Origin: a virus
Virus record (IMG/VR): IMGVR_UViG_3300045988_056128
Span: 1 to 5,063 of that record
Strand: one strand, 5' to 3'
Length of the DNA: 5,063 nt
In this document: one piece after another, positions 1 through 5,063 of the stretch
Numbering within the stretch: position 1 is the first letter of the stretch
Layout: every line of letters begins with the position of its first letter
Made by a program: the position numbers and the translations under genes
The notes under the pieces: generated by a model
Databases searched by the model: none
What the model saw: only the letters and a program-made list of their open reading frames with translations
Told to the model about the DNA's origin: nothing

Positions 1-263
1 CCGCTAAGGTTAAATTAACTGATAAGCAACGTGAACAAATTGAATCTGATTTGAAAGACCCTAAAAAACTTATGGATAAACAATTTTGGAAACAAGTTTT
101 TCATTCTAAAGATGAGAAGTTTAAGTTGCTCCGTGCTTCTTATGAGCGTGGCCTTTCCAATGATATATATTTTAATTTCTATGCTAATAGTCAAGGTTCC
201 GGCTTACAGGATGCTAATGACTTGGCTACTATTGGTTCTCGCCTTAAATATCTTTTTAAGTGA
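1..263 (+). CDS. VP2 minor capsid / DNA pilot protein, C-terminal part. It continues from 4339..5008 because the genome is circular; the full ORF is about 310 aa.
   Basis: Frame-3 ORF ends at TGA 261-263 and runs off the 5' edge of the window. It is in frame with the ORF running off the 3' edge (4339..5063) once the 55-nt terminal duplication is collapsed (5009=1). The sequence is Ala/Asn/Thr/Lys-rich and coiled-coil-like, as expected for a Microviridae pilot protein. Confidence 0.8.
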   Translation, partial: AKVKLTDKQREQIESDLKDPKKLMDKQFWKQVFHSKDEKFKLLRASYERGLSNDIYFNFYANSQGSGLQDANDLATIGSRLKYLFK

Positions 264-272
264 GGTGATATT

Positions 273-353
273 ATGAATAAATGGTTTAGCGCTCTTTGTG
301 TCGCTATTGGTGCGGCCGCTACTTATCTTAGCCAATTTATTTTCGGGAAATGA
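273..353 (+). CDS. Hypothetical 26-aa hydrophobic single-TM peptide, MNKWFSALCVAIGAAATYLSQFIFGK.
   Basis: ATG 273 lies 4 nt after a perfect SD, GAGGTGAT (262-269), which overlaps the VP2 stop TGA. The peptide ends at TGA 351-353, which is embedded in the next identical SD. It has an uninterrupted hydrophobic core of about 20 residues. The ORF is not in the track because it is shorter than the track cutoff. Confidence 0.4.
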   Translation: MNKWFSALCVAIGAAATYLSQFIFGK

Positions 354-362
354 GGTGATTTT

Positions 363-479
363 ATGAAACGTCGTAAGATGACTCGTAAAGGTTCCAAGCG
401 TCTTTTCACTGCAACCGCTGATAAAACTAAATCTATTAACACTGCTCCGCCGCCAATGCGTGGCGGTATCCGGTTGTAA
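363..479 (+). CDS. Small, highly basic DNA-binding protein of 38 aa, analogous to phiX174 J and gokushovirus ORF8: MKRRKMTRKGSKRLFTATADKTKSINTAPPPMRGGIRL.
   Basis: ATG 363 lies 4 nt after SD GAGGTGAT (352-359). Twelve of the 38 residues are K or R and only one is acidic. The stop TAA (477-479) overlaps the ATG of the Rep gene as TAATG. The size matches the J and ORF8 class of DNA-condensing proteins in Microviridae. Confidence 0.6.
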   Translation: MKRRKMTRKGSKRLFTATADKTKSINTAPPPMRGGIRL

Positions 480-2186: not shown

Positions 2187-2199
2187 TAGCTGATTTTAA

Positions 2200-2224
2200 G
2201 GCCGCCGTTTGGCGGTCTTTTTTT
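2200..2224 (+). terminator. Rho-independent terminator.
   Basis: A GC-rich 7-bp stem ggccgcc (2200-2206) / ggcggtc (2211-2217), including one G-U pair, has a gttt loop and is followed by a run of 7 T (2218-2224). It starts 14 nt after the VP3 stop. Confidence 0.7.
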
Positions 2225-2246
2225 ATTGCGAACTTCCGCCGAGGGT

Positions 2247-2283
2247 GTGGGAACAGTTGCCCTCTTGATGTAACTGTTCCCAC
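2247..2283. other. Perfect 12-bp hairpin: gtgggaacagtt / aactgttcccac, with 13-nt loop gccctcttgatgt.
   Basis: Exact reverse-complement arms were read directly from the sequence. The hairpin is in the only long non-coding region. The loop contains CTTGAT. Confidence 0.7.
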
Positions 2284-2287
2284 TGAC

Positions 2288-2312
2288 ACCAATCGTTAAA
2301 CTGTCGATTGGT
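2288..2312. other. Second hairpin: accaatcg / cgattggt, 8-bp stem with 9-nt loop.
   Basis: Exact inverted repeat starting 5 nt after hairpin 1. Confidence 0.6.
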
Positions 2313-2340: not shown

Positions 2341-2385
2341 ATAAAAATACGGCCTTTCCGTTTAAATATTTTTTCGTTCCGGTAG

Positions 2386-2414
2386 TTGATACTATGTTAA
2401 ATTTCTGTTAGAAT
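2386..2414 (+). promoter_or_regulatory. Sigma70-type promoter: -35 TTGATA (2386-2391), 17-nt spacer, extended -10 TGtTAGAAT (2406-2414). An AT-rich UP-like tract lies upstream at 2361-2376.
   Basis: Five of six matches to each consensus hexamer at the optimal 17-bp spacing, plus the TGn extended -10 motif. It sits in the only intergenic region, downstream of the terminator and upstream of the ORF52/VP1 block. The predicted TSS is at about 2421. Confidence 0.5.
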
Positions 2415-2487
2415 ATCTATGAGAGGTAAATATATCATGCCTCTTATATGGCGTAATGTTATATACAAGCAAGAAAGGAGTCAAAAA

Positions 2488-2646
2488 ATGGTAATGTCTG
2501 ATTTTGACCGCTTTGTCATTAGGCATGGATTGATGCCCACTTACAATCCGGATACTCTTATTTGGGTTCATGGTTCTTATTGTGATGTTCCTGCTGAATA
2601 TTCAGCACGTGTTTTCTCGAAAGGTGGTGAATTTGTGAATGAGTAG
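2488..2646 (+). CDS. Hypothetical protein of 52 aa, MVMSDFDRFVIRHGLMPTYNPDTLIWVHGSYCDVPAEYSARVFSKGGEFVNE, with no recognised family.
   Basis: A strong SD, AAAGGAG (2474-2480), sits 7 nt before ATG 2488. This is the first ORF downstream of the predicted promoter and it overlaps the VP1 start by 8 nt. The track ORF 2419..2646 is the same frame with an upstream ATG that would lie at the predicted TSS and has no SD. Confidence 0.4.
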   Translation: MVMSDFDRFVIRHGLMPTYNPDTLIWVHGSYCDVPAEYSARVFSKGGEFVNE

Positions 2647-4234
2647 ACATTCAGTACAACATCTGTTTTCTCAGGTGCCTACTGCTCAAATTCCTCGTTC
2701 TAAGTTCAATCGCTCTCATGGTTTAAAGACTACGTTTGATAGCGGTTATCTAGTACCAATCTTTGTAGATGAGGTTCTTCCCGGTGATACGTTCTCTATG
2801 GACTGTACGCTGTTTGCTCGTGTTGCTACACTGATTAGCCCTATCATGGATAATATGTACATGGACACTTTTTGGTTCTTCGTGCCGGAACGTTTGTTGT
2901 TTGACCACTTCCAAGCAATGTGCGGTGAACAGGATAATCCTACTGATTCTACTGATTATCTCTTTCCTACTGTGAAATCTCCAACAGGTACAGGCTTTGA
3001 AGTTGGTTCCATTGCTGATTACTTTGGATTGCCAACAGGTATCCCGAATTTAGAAGTCAGAGCAGAGCCGTTCCGTGCTTACAATCTCATCTATAATGAA
3101 TGGTTTCGTGACGAAAATCTTCAAGAGTCTTTGCCTTTTACTAAAGCAGATTCAGACCAATACTCTAACTATAAGTTAGTTAGACGTGGCAAACGTCATG
3201 ACTACTTTACTTCTGCCTTACCTTGGCCGCAAAAAGGCCCCGGTGTAGAGTTGCCCTTTGGCGGTACTGCTTCGCTTACAGGTGAGATTTTCCAAAATCT
3301 TTATTCCGGCGATATTCGCGGTCGTCAGAATCAGGGTGATGATAGTTGGCTTGCTAATGTTCTTTTAACTAGTGCTGGTTATGCTGGTTCTGGTGATGAT
3401 GATAGTTTTGCTGGTGGTACTCCTTACAAACTTAGTATGGATTTGTCTAAGGCTAAAGTCGATTTAACATCTGCTACGTCTATCACTATCAATCAGTTCC
3501 GTGAGGCTTTTCAGATTCAACGCTGGTATGAGCGTGCTGCTCGTGGTGGTACTCGTTACACAGAAATAATCAGAAGTTTCTTCGGTGTAGTTTCTCCTGA
3601 CGCTCGTCTTCAACGTCCGGAATATCTTGGCGGTTCCTCTAATCGTATTGATGTTAATGTCATTCCGCAGACATCTGGTACTACTGATGTTTCTCCGCAG
3701 GCTAATTTATCTGCTTTTGCTGTTGCTACCAATGGTAGAGGCAATGGATTTAGCAAGTCTTTCACCGAGCATGGTTGGATTATTGGTCTCGTCAATGTCA
3801 GAGCTGATTTGACCTATCAACAAGGCATTAATAGGATGTGGACACGTTCTACTAAGTTCGATATGTATTGGCCGACATTTGCTTTTTTAGGTGAGCAGGC
3901 TGTGTTAAACAAGGAAATATTCGCCCAAGGTAATGAAGAGGATGATGGCGTTTTTGGTTATCAGGAACGCTATGCCGAATACAGGTATTCACCTAGTCAA
4001 GTTACCGGTAGATTCCGTTCTACTTATGCTCAGTCTTTGGATTCTTGGCATTTAGCTCAAAAATTCGATAATTTGCCTAAGCTCAACCCGGAATTCATTG
4101 TTGATAATCCGCCGATTGATAGAATTGTTGCTGTTCCGTCTGAACCTCAATTCCTTCTTGATGCGTGGTTTAATTTAAATTGCGTTCGTCCGATGCCGGT
4201 CTATGGTGTCCCCGGTCTTATGGACCATTTCTAA
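2639..4234 (+). CDS. Major capsid protein (VP1, F-protein family), 531 aa.
   Basis: The N-terminal RSKFNRSHGLKTTFDSGYLVPIFVDEVLPGDTF signature is the hallmark of Microviridae and gokushovirus major capsid proteins. The length is typical. SD AAGGTGGTGA (2621-2630) sits upstream of the ATG. Confidence 0.95.
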   Translation: MSRHSVQHLFSQVPTAQIPRSKFNRSHGLKTTFDSGYLVPIFVDEVLPGDTFSMDCTLFARVATLISPIMDNMYMDTFWFFVPERLLFDHFQAMCGEQDNPTDSTDYLFPTVKSPTGTGFEVGSIADYFGLPTGIPNLEVRAEPFRAYNLIYNEWFRDENLQESLPFTKADSDQYSNYKLVRRGKRHDYFTSALPWPQKGPGVELPFGGTASLTGEIFQNLYSGDIRGRQNQGDDSWLANVLLTSAGYAGSGDDDSFAGGTPYKLSMDLSKAKVDLTSATSITINQFREAFQIQRWYERAARGGTRYTEIIRSFFGVVSPDARLQRPEYLGGSSNRIDVNVIPQTSGTTDVSPQANLSAFAVATNGRGNGFSKSFTEHGWIIGLVNVRADLTYQQGINRMWTRSTKFDMYWPTFAFLGEQAVLNKEIFAQGNEEDDGVFGYQERYAEYRYSPSQVTGRFRSTYAQSLDSWHLAQKFDNLPKLNPEFIVDNPPIDRIVAVPSEPQFLLDAWFNLNCVRPMPVYGVPGLMDHF

Positions 4235-4248
4235 GAGAGGTGAATATT

Positions 4249-4329
4249 TTGAATGACTTACAAGTTTCAACTATTGCAATCGTATCTTTGTGTATTATTG
4301 TTGTCTTACGTACTTTTGGTCTGATTTGA
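4249..4329 (+). CDS. Hypothetical small hydrophobic peptide between VP1 and VP2. With a TTG start it reads (M)NDLQVSTIAIVSLCIIVVLRTFGLI, 26 aa. The alternative ATG 4253..4324 in the next frame gives MTYKFQLLQSYLCVLLLSYVLLV.
   Basis: A perfect SD, GAGGTGA (4237-4243), lies immediately after the VP1 stop. In the otherwise gapless genome a 104-nt gap separates VP1 from VP2. With the TTG start, the stop TGA 4327-4329 is embedded in the SD of VP2, the same architecture as at 261-363. Start codon and frame are uncertain. Confidence 0.3.
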   Translation: MNDLQVSTIAIVSLCIIVVLRTFGLI

Positions 4330-4338
4330 GGTGTTACC

Positions 4339-5063
4339 ATGGGTTTATGGTCTGCTATCCGTGGCGATGTTTTTGGTAGCCTTGCTGGCGGTCTTATCGG
4401 TTCTGCTTTTGGCGGCAATAGTGCCAAAAAGCAAGCCGCCCTCCAGCGTCAAAATTGGGCATATCAACAGCAAAATGCCCATCAGTTTGAAGTTGGCGAC
4501 TTAAAGGCCGCTGGTCTTAATCCTATTCTTTCTGCTACTAATAGCCAAATTGCCGGCATGGGTTCCGCCCCTTCTACTTCTGATAATGGTGTTGGAGCTG
4601 GCGTTACTAATAGTATTACCGCCGCTCTTACTCGTCAGGCTAATGTAGAAATTGAAAAAACTAAAGCTGATATTGCTTTGATTGAAGCTAAGGCCAATGC
4701 TACCAATGCTAGAACTAATGCTATTACTGCTGGTATACATGGTGATGATATATCTAAGGCTAATGAGCGTTATGATGCTGATACTGCAAATATTAAATCT
4801 GATACTCGCTTGAAAAATGTTACTGCTGATTATACTTCCGCTAAACAATCTAATGAAGCCAAACTTACACAGGCTGAATTTGAGCGTATTCAGAATGATA
4901 TTCGTATTGCTAATGAGAAGTTGCCCTATGAGATTGATAATATTGTTGCTAATAGTCAAAATGCTCGTGCTACTGCTAGCTATATGTTATCTATGGTTAA
5001 TCTGAATGCCGCTAAGGTTAAATTAACTGATAAGCAACGTGAACAAATTGAATCTGATTTGAA
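4339..5063 (+). CDS. VP2 minor capsid / DNA pilot protein, N-terminal part. It runs off the window end and continues at 1..263.
   Basis: ATG 4339 lies 5 nt after TGAGGTG (4327-4333). The N-terminus is Gly-rich and hydrophobic, MGLWSAIRGDVFGSLAGGLIGSAFGG, followed by QNWAYQQQNAHQFEVGDLKAAGLNPILS, which is typical of gokushovirus VP2. There is no in-frame stop to the end of the window. Confidence 0.85.
   Translation, partial: MGLWSAIRGDVFGSLAGGLIGSAFGGNSAKKQAALQRQNWAYQQQNAHQFEVGDLKAAGLNPILSATNSQIAGMGSAPSTSDNGVGAGVTNSITAALTRQANVEIEKTKADIALIEAKANATNARTNAITAGIHGDDISKANERYDADTANIKSDTRLKNVTADYTSAKQSNEAKLTQAEFERIQNDIRIANEKLPYEIDNIVANSQNARATASYMLSMVNLNAAKVKLTDKQREQIESDL
5009..5063. repeat. 55-nt exact terminal duplication of 1..55. 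This is an artefact of linearising a circular genome, whose unit length is 5008 nt.
   Basis: Direct comparison: ccgctaaggttaaattaactgataagcaacgtgaacaaattgaatctgatttgaa occurs at both ends of the window. Confidence 0.9.

What the first reader, a model, noticed from the sequence alone, without database searches (positions are those of the whole stretch)
273..353. 26-aa single-TM peptide between VP2 and the J-like gene, with a second of similar size between VP1 and VP2
Gokushoviruses have no described E-type lysis gene. Here two ORFs of about 26 aa have optimal SDs and long uncharged hydrophobic cores: MNKWFSALCVAIGAAATYLSQFIFGK and (M)NDLQVSTIAIVSLCIIVVLRTFGLI. They occupy the only gaps in an otherwise overlapping gene set. 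They are candidates for membrane-active or lysis peptides (MraY/MurJ-type inhibitors, as in phiX174 E and Qbeta A2), or for small morphogenetic or membrane-anchoring factors. They are probably unannotated because they fall below ORF-caller cutoffs.
Basis: partly seen in the sequence, partly recalled or inferred. Interest (0 to 1): 0.65.

Follow-up and report, generated by a model that had tools for sequence, protein, structure and literature searches.

The report
Two unannotated gokushovirus membrane mini-genes
Two 26-codon genes hidden in the gaps of this small gut-phage genome are real, conserved and encode membrane-type peptides; they are the only candidates in this clade for the still-unknown way such phages burst their host, but that function has not been tested.

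Summary
The window is a circular 5,008-nt gokushovirus genome. Both ORFs exist: pep1 at 273-353 (ATG) and pep2 at 4249-4329 (TTG). Each follows a GAGGTG Shine-Dalgarno that overlaps the upstream stop codon.

They are genuine genes. pN/pS is 0.16 for both, against 0.14 for the J-like gene and 0.8 or more in other frames. For pep1, 26 nucleotide alleles encode 6 peptides (P=2e-5). The pep2 start codon switches between TTG, ATG and GTG at the same position.

No GenBank record annotates either gene, and no Pfam or PHROG family matches.

pep1 extends to lineages whose VP1 is only about 45% identical. It occurs in three gene-order contexts. pep2 is never found without pep1: 20 genomes have both, 7 have pep1 only, 0 have pep2 only, 61 have neither.

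pep2 is a uniformly hydrophobic membrane span with an invariant VxL[RK][TS]FxLI tail. pep1 is an uncharged amphipathic helix with a face of small residues.

Relatives are prophages integrated at dif in Phascolarctobacterium.

In most genomes of the clade these are the only genes beyond the six canonical ones. Lysis is therefore the leading hypothesis, at about 0.4. It is untested, and EC6098-like gokushoviruses lyse E. coli without either gene.

The parts
273..353 (+). pep1 gene: 26 aa, MNKWFSALCVAIGAAATYLSQFIFGK. Invariant M-N-K-W head, then an uncharged amphipathic helix with a face of small and polar residues.
   Evidence: ORF. pN/pS 0.156. 26 alleles encode 6 peptides; variable columns 6/2/21, P=1.9e-5; 32 synonymous vs 6 nonsynonymous changes. 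Family alignment A1. Helical moment z about 2.2.
262..267 (+). GAGGTG Shine-Dalgarno of pep1. It overlaps the VP2 stop TGA (261-263) and lies 5 nt before the ATG.
   Evidence: Sequence. The same TGAGGTG-5nt-ATG arrangement is kept in relatives.
352..357 (+). GAGGTG Shine-Dalgarno of the J-like (VP8) gene (363-479). It overlaps the pep1 stop TGA (351-353), which implies translational coupling from pep1 to J.
   Evidence: Sequence. J-like gene matches PHROG 10695, E=8e-13.
4249..4329 (+). pep2 gene: 26 aa, TTG start, (M)NDLQVSTIAIVSLCIIVVLRTFGLI. Acidic N-terminus, uniformly hydrophobic span, invariant C-terminal V-x-L-[RK]-[TS]-F-x-L-I.
   Evidence: ORF. pN/pS 0.164. The start codon is ATG at the same position in L018, L010, L021 and L152, and GTG in L139. 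A 1-nt insertion just upstream in L007 leaves the frame intact. Alignment A2. Hessa dG -0.72.
4237..4242 (+). GAGGTG Shine-Dalgarno of pep2. It lies 6 nt before the TTG and just after the VP1 stop TAA (4232-4234).
   Evidence: Sequence. GGAGGTG is conserved in relatives.
4328..4333 (+). GAGGTG Shine-Dalgarno of VP2 (ATG at 4339). It overlaps the pep2 stop TGA (4327-4329), which implies translational coupling from pep2 to VP2.
   Evidence: Sequence. In L122, L145 and L146 the pep2 stop and VP2 start overlap as ATGA.
2386..2414 (+). Probable promoter of the polycistronic transcript that carries both peptide genes: TTGATA-17-TAGAAT with an extended -10. It overlaps the phage's dif-like site (2376-2403).
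   Evidence: Best sense-strand promoter match. The prophage junction maps to 2393-2401. Function is inferred, not shown.
2198..2219 (+). Intrinsic-terminator-like hairpin after VP3; probable end of the transcription unit.

Best explanation
Shown: pep1 and pep2 are protein-coding genes under purifying selection. Each encodes one short helix of membrane type.

Inferred from the Shine-Dalgarno/stop-codon overlaps, one good promoter match and two terminator matches: both lie inside a single late polycistronic unit, VP1-pep2-VP2-pep1-J-VP4, and are translationally coupled to their neighbours.

Inferred from charge placement: pep2 inserts with its N-terminus outside and its C-terminus inside, presenting its invariant [RK][TS]FxLI tail to the cytoplasm. 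pep1 inserts with its N-terminus inside and uses its small-residue face to pack against other membrane helices.

Inferred function: together they provide the phage's action on the host envelope at the end of infection, that is, lysis and release. pep1 is the core effector because it occurs alone in seven lineages. It would work like a very small single-gene lysis protein, either by wedging into a membrane enzyme or flippase of the lipid II pathway, or by oligomerising and depolarising the membrane. pep2 never occurs without pep1 and sits directly beside it in L139. It is an added partner that tunes the timing or targeting of pep1.

Confidence that both are real genes for membrane-type peptides is about 0.95. 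Confidence in the lysis role is about 0.4.
For: Coding status:
- pN/pS is 0.156 and 0.164, against 0.141 for the accepted J-like gene; other frames give 0.8 or more.
- Third-position excess and synonymous:nonsynonymous counts of 32:6 and 42:20.
- The pep2 start codon switches TTG/ATG/GTG at one position.
- No RNA family and no unusual RNA fold at either locus.

Membrane character:
- pep2 has dG -0.72, and only 0.09% of random ORFs are as hydrophobic.
- pep1 has a 22-residue uncharged core and a helical moment z about 2.2 in all 12 members.

By elimination:
- No lysis enzyme or any other unassigned family is found in the genome.
- The only other extra ORF (2419/2488-2646) is a variable insertion that most relatives lack. 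In L001, L003 and L005-L009 the gene set is the six canonical genes plus pep1 and pep2.

Open question: gokushoviruses lack a known lysis gene (PMC7062461).

Precedent:
- Membrane-localised single-helix Sgls target MraY or MurJ, and about 10% of untargeted TMD candidates lyse E. coli.
- LysM is 37 residues (PMC12506998).
- A 25-residue MS2 L peptide dissipates the proton-motive force (cited).

Plasticity typical of lysis genes: other lineages carry non-homologous small hydrophobic genes in the same two slots.

Expression: weak start codons behind strong Shine-Dalgarno sites (TTG in 24 of 26 pep2 alleles; TTG or ATT in several pep1 genes) fit a potent product kept at a low level.

Nested distribution and tandem arrangement of the two genes.
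Against: - There is no functional test of any kind.
- 26 aa is shorter than any characterised Sgl.
- pep1 is only marginally hydrophobic by a simple insertion scale.
- Neither peptide shows any similarity to E, to holins or to any other family.
- 61 of 88 distinct gokushovirus genomes have neither gene. EC6098-like phages lyse E. coli (PMC7062461) yet have no room for intergenic peptides. Lysis in this subfamily can therefore be achieved some other way, and the argument by elimination is weakened.
- pep1 lies next to the DNA-binding J gene in two of its three contexts, and both peptides flank the pilot protein VP2. That equally suits a role in morphogenesis or DNA delivery.
- The phage is temperate, so superinfection exclusion is a plausible alternative.
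Confidence: 0.4

Rival explanations
1. The peptides are accessory membrane proteins unrelated to lysis. They could act in superinfection exclusion or immunity by blocking DNA entry of incoming phage at the membrane. Alternatively they could optimise burst size as the small hydrophobic K protein of phiX174 does.
For: Relatives are dif-integrated prophages of Phascolarctobacterium. Gokushovirus prophages confer superinfection immunity by an unknown mechanism (PMC7062461). The genes are clade-restricted and dispensable at subfamily level. phiX174 K is a small, non-essential hydrophobic protein (own knowledge).
Against: Both genes sit inside the late structural operon and are coupled to VP1, VP2 and J, with no promoter of their own. 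EC6098-like phages show immunity but lack the genes. Purifying selection is as strong as on J.
Confidence: 0.25
2. The peptides are morphogenetic or DNA-delivery cofactors. They would be small hydrophobic helices that work with the pilot protein VP2 and/or the DNA-binding protein J. Possible roles include chaperoning VP2's hydrophobic N-terminus, anchoring assembly or packaging at the membrane, or travelling in the virion to help form the DNA conduit.
For: pep2 lies directly upstream of VP2 and is coupled to it. pep1 lies directly upstream of J in two gene orders and moves together with J. In L139 both peptides sit directly upstream of VP2.
Against: pep1 shows no relationship to the VP2 N-terminus (hhalign probability 0.9%). 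pep1 is separated from J in L139. Most gokushoviruses assemble without these genes.
Confidence: 0.2
3. The ORFs are leader ORFs. Only the act of translating them matters, because it delivers ribosomes to the VP2 and J start sites. The peptide products would be incidental.
For: Each stop codon is embedded in the next gene's Shine-Dalgarno (TGAGGTG-5nt-ATG) or overlaps the next start as ATGA or TAATG.
Against: Selection acts on the amino-acid sequence: pN/pS is 0.16, and 26 alleles encode only 6 peptides. Motifs are conserved across lineages whose VP1 is 45-70% identical. Other gokushoviruses express VP2 and J without any leader ORF.
Confidence: 0.05
4. The ORFs are chance open frames made hydrophobic by the T-rich coding strand.
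For: 18% of stop-to-stop segments in this genome reach pep1's hydrophobicity. Hydrophobic alternative-frame ORFs are common in the window.
Against: The ORFs are conserved, show frame-specific purifying selection, have conserved Shine-Dalgarno sites, and show start-codon switching.
Confidence: 0.01

Closest known systems
phiX174 protein E (Bullavirinae amurin, MraY inhibitor)
   Same: It is a microvirus-encoded small protein whose active part is a single N-terminal membrane helix. It serves as the only lysis gene in a tiny genome that has no endolysin.
   Different: E is 91 aa, is overprinted inside gene D, and needs a proline in its membrane span and host SlyD (own knowledge). pep1 and pep2 are 26 aa, occupy their own intergenic slots, have no proline in the span, and have no sequence or profile similarity to E.
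Levivirus M Sgl (LysM, 37 residues, MurJ inhibitor) and SglPP7
   Same: These are very small single-helix membrane proteins that act by helix packing against a host membrane protein (PMC12506998). pep1's conserved small-residue face suits that mode of action.
   Different: They come from ssRNA phages and are not homologous to pep1 or pep2. They are 37 aa or longer. Their lytic function is demonstrated, whereas here it is only inferred.
MS2 L C-terminal 25-residue peptide and type I toxin peptides (TisB, ShoB, Ibs; own knowledge)
   Same: They are peptides of about 19-30 residues that are sufficient to permeabilise or depolarise the inner membrane (Goessens 1988, cited).
   Different: They contain charged residues in an amphipathic helix, whereas the pep1 and pep2 cores are uncharged. 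The type I toxins are chromosomal genes controlled by antisense RNA.
phiX174 protein K
   Same: It is a small hydrophobic accessory protein of a microvirus that is not part of the virion (own knowledge).
   Different: K is 56 aa and overprinted. It is not homologous to either peptide, and its function (modulating burst size) is itself poorly defined.
Holins and pinholins of tailed phages
   Same: They are small membrane proteins of the late operon. Glycine/alanine-zipper faces drive their oligomerisation, and two-component holin/antiholin sets exist.
   Different: Holins come with an endolysin, and none is encoded here. Holins are usually 60 aa or longer with a charged C-terminal domain. The only PHROG holin hit was E=0.16, and only for the clade-2 pep1.

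Membership tests
phiX174 E-type lysis protein (amurin) | Sequence or profile similarity to the microvirus lysis protein E family | tested here: not met
   No Pfam-A or PHROG family at E<=1 for either window peptide.
phiX174 E-type lysis protein (amurin) | Gene overprinted within the scaffolding gene; product about 90 aa with an N-terminal TMD containing an essential proline | tested here: not met
   Both genes lie in their own intergenic slots and encode 26 aa. The window peptides contain no proline.
phiX174 E-type lysis protein (amurin) | Inhibits MraY and causes septal lysis of growing cells | not testable with these tools
   Requires expression and biochemical assays.
Single-gene lysis proteins (Sgl) in the functional sense | A small protein with one membrane helix, encoded by a small lytic phage that lacks an endolysin | tested here: met
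   pep2 is clearly a TM span (dG -0.72). pep1 has an uncharged 22-residue amphipathic helix and is borderline (dG +3.05). No muralytic enzyme is encoded in the genome.
Single-gene lysis proteins (Sgl) in the functional sense | Expression alone causes lysis of the host | not testable with these tools
   The base rate for untargeted TMD candidates was about 10% in E. coli.
Holin or pinholin | Genetic pairing with an endolysin | tested here: not met
   No endolysin or peptidase is encoded in the window or in close relatives.
Holin or pinholin | Profile match to a holin family | tested here: not met
   The only hit was phrog_4712 (holin) at E=0.16, for the clade-2 pep1. The window peptides gave none.
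Gokushovirus pilot protein VP2 N-terminal hydrophobic segment (possible paralogue) | Profile similarity between the pep1 family and VP2 N-termini | tested here: not met
   hhalign probability 0.9%.
Small ORFs upstream of J in Sutterella-type and L070-type gokushoviruses | Profile similarity to pep1 (NKWF/NDWW head) | tested here: inconclusive
   hhalign aligns NKWFSAL with NDWWTLL, but the probability is 1.8% and P=0.028. The sequences are too short to decide.

The most novel reading that the evidence does not exclude
pep1 is the missing lysis gene of a large clade of gut gokushoviruses. At 26 residues it would be the smallest known 'protein antibiotic'. It would act through its conserved small-residue helix face on a membrane step of cell-wall precursor supply in diderm Firmicutes, and pep2 would be a dedicated membrane partner. 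Together they would form a two-peptide lysis module unlike E, the ssRNA-phage Sgls, or holin-endolysin systems.
Probability: 0.3. Interest if true: 0.8.

Novelty: new variant of a known kind. Interest (0 to 1): 0.6.

Why it matters
How gokushoviruses leave their hosts is an acknowledged gap. These are among the most abundant ssDNA phages in gut and environmental viromes, yet they lack the phiX174 E gene and usually have no lytic enzyme.

This analysis turns two ignored 81-nt gaps into two conserved gene families with defined motifs, a defined distribution and a likely host genus. That makes the lysis question directly testable for this clade by synthesis and inducible expression.

If either peptide targets a cell-wall precursor step, it would define a minimal peptide inhibitor and possibly a new antibiotic target site in Negativicutes.

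The result also shows that standard ORF callers, which impose a minimum of 90 nt, systematically miss real genes in microviruses. Even the J-like gene is unannotated in every GenBank relative.

Tried and rejected
1. The alternative ATG ORF at 4253-4324 (MTYKFQLL...) was considered as the real pep2.

2. An upstream in-frame start for pep2 (TTG 4180, or ATT 4246). Rejected: L007 has a 1-nt insertion just upstream of the TTG, and relatives use ATG at the 4249 position.

3. Stop-codon readthrough fusions (pep2-VP2, pep1-J). These are in frame in the window, but not in L002 (TAATG) or in L122, L145 and L146 (ATGA), nor in L021. The feature is not conserved.

4. The four GenBank records where pep2 falls under a 'similar to VP2' feature. 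This is only a 1-nt overlap, not a fusion.

5. pep1 as a paralogue of the VP2 N-terminus. hhalign probability 0.9%.

6. Remote homology of pep1 to other small ORFs upstream of J. Not supported.

7. A conserved RNA element instead of a gene. No Rfam hit, and fold z-scores of 0.34 and -0.05.

8. Enrichment of small TM-like ORFs in gokushovirus gaps: 24 on the sense strand against 3 on the antisense strand. This control is biased by the T-rich coding strand, and the crude caller both missed pep2 and picked up alternative-frame artefacts. I treat it as suggestive only.

9. The large protein-database searches, representative search and structure prediction could not be used. The peptides are shorter than the tools' 30- to 40-aa minima.

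11. The 75-aa ORF at 2419-2646 as the lysis gene. It is a variable insertion absent from most relatives.

12. A search for an overprinted hydrophobic ORF in EC6098-like prophages found nothing conserved across all six genomes.

13. Several literature searches found no earlier description of these peptides.

Full report
**What the window is.** The 5,063-nt window is a circular 5,008-nt gokushovirus genome with a 55-nt terminal overlap. The genes run on the plus strand in this order:
- VP2, 4339 wrapping round to 263
- pep1, 273-353
- a J-like/VP8 gene, 363-479 (PHROG 10695, E=8e-13)
- VP4, 479-1417
- VP5, 1395-1646
- VP3, 1716-2186
- a non-coding region of about 230-300 nt
- an optional small ORF ending at 2646
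- VP1, 2639-4234
- pep2, 4249-4329

These assignments rest. The closest GenBank records are nine monkey and pig faecal gokushoviruses at 84-87% nucleotide identity. None of them annotates pep1, pep2 or even the J-like gene.

**Checking the observation.** pep1 starts at ATG 273. Its GAGGTG lies 5 nt upstream and overlaps the VP2 stop codon. pep2 starts at TTG 4249, with GAGGTG 6 nt upstream. The pep1 stop lies inside the J-like gene's Shine-Dalgarno, and the pep2 stop lies inside VP2's. The repeated TGAGGTG-5nt-ATG pattern therefore links pep2-VP2-pep1-J, and the VP1 stop sits just upstream of pep2's Shine-Dalgarno.

These are not the only gaps in the genome. And pep1 is only moderately hydrophobic.

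**Are they genes?** Yes. Four lines of evidence agree.

First, both ORFs are intact in all nine close relatives and are recognisable in the more distant fox virus KT264825.

Second, pairwise Nei-Gojobori sums give pN/pS of 0.156 for pep1 and 0.164 for pep2. The accepted J-like gene gives 0.141. The two alternative frames give 0.8 to more than 2.

Third, the wider allele set shows the same pattern:

| Gene | Distinct nt alleles | Distinct peptides | Variable columns (pos 1/2/3) | Binomial P | Syn : nonsyn |
|---|---|---|---|---|---|
| pep1 (window clade) | 26 | 6 | 6/2/21 | 1.9e-5 | 32 : 6 |
| pep2 | 26 | 11 | 15/6/21 | 0.019 | 42 : 20 |

Fourth, the pep2 TTG is replaced by ATG at the same codon in L018, L010, L021 and L152, and by GTG in L139. 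A 1-nt insertion in L007 lies just upstream of it.

The overlapping ATG ORF at 4253-4324 is not under selection. No Rfam family matches either locus, and neither folds better than shuffled sequence.

**Distribution and context.** tblastn finds pep1 in 12 GenBank phage records and pep2 in 16. None carries a feature for them.

pep1 reaches far beyond the window's clade. It occurs in:
- L021 and L140
- the NKWW subtype (L010, L122, L139, L142, L145, L146, L152, L156-L158)
- L023
- a diverged form in L133
- a second clade whose VP1 is only about 45% identical (L092, L094, L098, L100, L108, L116, L121)

pep1 occurs in three gene orders: VP2-pep1-J-VP4, VP5-pep1-J-VP3, and VP1-pep2-pep1-VP2-J. It usually travels with J but is not bound to it.

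pep2 is confined to the lineages with VP1 of at least about 58% identity, and it always sits in the VP1-VP2 gap. Among 88 distinct assessable genomes, the counts are as follows:

| pep1 | pep2 | Genomes |
|---|---|---|
| present | present | 20 |
| present | absent | 7 |
| absent | present | 0 |
| absent | absent | 61 |

Other gokushovirus lineages carry non-homologous small hydrophobic genes in the same two slots. EC6098-like E. coli prophages have neither the genes nor the space for them.

**Anatomy of the peptides.** The pep2 family has an acidic N-terminus and a uniformly hydrophobic, beta-branched span. Its simple Hessa sum is -0.72 kcal/mol, and 0.09% of composition-matched random ORFs are as hydrophobic. 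Its tail, V-x-L-[RK]-[TS]-F-x-L-I-stop, is invariant. It shows no amphipathic periodicity.

The pep1 family has an invariant Met-Asn-Lys-Trp head and a 22-residue uncharged core rich in Ala, Gly, Ser and Thr. All 12 members show a raised helical moment in both side-chain volume and hydrophobicity (mean z about 2.2). Small and polar residues (S/T6, V/Q/E10, G13/A14, T/G17, Q/G21) line one face, and bulky residues line the other.

By the positive-inside rule, the two peptides would have opposite topologies. This is an inference.

Weak start codons behind strong Shine-Dalgarno sites recur: TTG in 24 of 26 pep2 alleles, and TTG or apparently ATT in several pep1 genes.

**Host and lifestyle.** Full copies of close relatives are integrated in longer contigs, and the junction falls at window coordinates 2393-2401. 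The host side of the junction is a dif-like site (ACGTCCGATAA-TRTATA-TTATGTWAAAT). Related prophages lie in Phascolarctobacterium contigs, and one flank gene is 89% identical between L013 and the Phascolarctobacterium contig L133.

The likely host is therefore a diderm Firmicute. The phage is temperate in the XerCD/dif manner described for enterobacterial gokushoviruses (PMC7062461).

The best promoter match (2386-2414) overlaps the phage's dif-like site. Terminator-like hairpins follow VP5 and VP3. Both peptide genes therefore lie inside one polycistronic unit.

**What they most likely do.** This much is shown: there are two selected genes for membrane-type helices, they are coupled to the structural genes, and their distribution is nested.

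The rest is inferred. In most genomes of the clade these are the only genes beyond VP1-VP5 and J. The 2419/2488-2646 ORF is a variable insertion, and no lytic enzyme is encoded. Gokushoviruses are known to lack a lysis gene. Small membrane helices are what single-gene lysis proteins are made of. I therefore rank lysis or release first, with pep1 as the effector and pep2 as its added partner, at about 0.4.

Several facts count against this reading:
- there is no experiment
- the peptides are very small
- pep1 is only borderline hydrophobic
- most gokushoviruses lack the genes, including the one group shown to lyse E. coli

The rivals are:
- an accessory membrane role such as superinfection exclusion, or a K-like effect on burst size (0.25)
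- a morphogenetic or DNA-delivery role with VP2 and J (0.2)
- pure leader ORFs (0.05, contradicted by selection on the amino-acid sequence)
- chance ORFs (0.01)

**Comparison with what is known.** The peptides work like the membrane-helix Sgls (E, LysM) or like small depolarising peptides, but they are members of neither group. No profile matches them. Neither gene is overprinted. Neither span contains a proline. No endolysin partner is present. pep1 is not related to the VP2 N-terminus. A resemblance to other small ORFs upstream of J is not significant.

No paper in the searchable library describes small hydrophobic ORFs in gokushoviruses.

**Verdict.** This is a real, conserved and previously unannotated pair of mini-genes. 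They form new families within a known general kind: small phage membrane peptides, and candidate single-gene lysis proteins. They make the lysis question testable for this clade but do not yet answer it.

Noticed in passing
window 2376-2415; L013, L014, L133 junctions: Relatives are prophages integrated at a host dif-like site in Phascolarctobacterium-type contigs. The window carries an imperfect dif (cgttccggtag-TTGATA-ctatgttaaat). The best promoter match (-35 TTGATA, -10 TAGAAT) overlaps it, and in the integrated form the -35 is replaced by host sequence. Integration might therefore silence the operon.
   Followed up: partly
window 2241-2296 (hairpin 2249-2281): A hairpin whose loop contains CTCTTGATGTA is 92-98% identical over about 50 nt in otherwise unrelated microviruses (hits H13-H24). 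It recurs in EC6098-like E. coli prophages. It is probably the rolling-circle origin and VP4 nick site.
   Followed up: no
window 2419-2646 (likely start at 2488): A 52-75-aa ORF between the usual VP1 Shine-Dalgarno and VP1 is a variable insertion. It is absent from L001, L003 and L005-L009, and different inserts occupy the slot in L002 and L010. No family matches it. It looks like an accessory-gene slot.
   Followed up: partly
window 363-479: The J-like/VP8 DNA-binding gene (PHROG 10695, E=8e-13) is unannotated in all ten GenBank relatives examined, and also in RefSeq annotations of EC6098-like E. coli prophages.
   Followed up: partly
L045, L050, L059, L061, L086, L088 (VP1-VP2 gap): A conserved 55-60-aa single-TM protein family (MD..K.A.I.HV.RKYVAP..GALVVWLVAN...) occupies the same VP1-VP2 slot in environmental gokushovirus lineages. 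It is not homologous to pep2.
   Followed up: no
L125 10536-10711; L030, L038, L042, L043: Sutterella-type gokushoviruses carry a different pair of small genes directly upstream of J: a 30-39-aa TM peptide and a 28-30-aa amphipathic peptide (M[AT]LH..DW[WF]...FFK.FF). The architecture matches pep2 plus pep1, but homology is not demonstrable.
   Followed up: partly
L147 4864-4995; L124 7795-7920: A 41-43-aa TM-like ORF with a basic tail is overprinted in the 3' part of VP2. It is shared by one E. coli prophage and the Intestinirhabdus prophage but is absent from four other E. coli prophages. Its significance is unknown.
   Followed up: partly
L146, just downstream of VP2 (locus position about 2190): In this genome the pep1 codon at the start position is ATT, 6 nt after GAGGTG. 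This suggests a rare ATT initiation codon.
   Followed up: no
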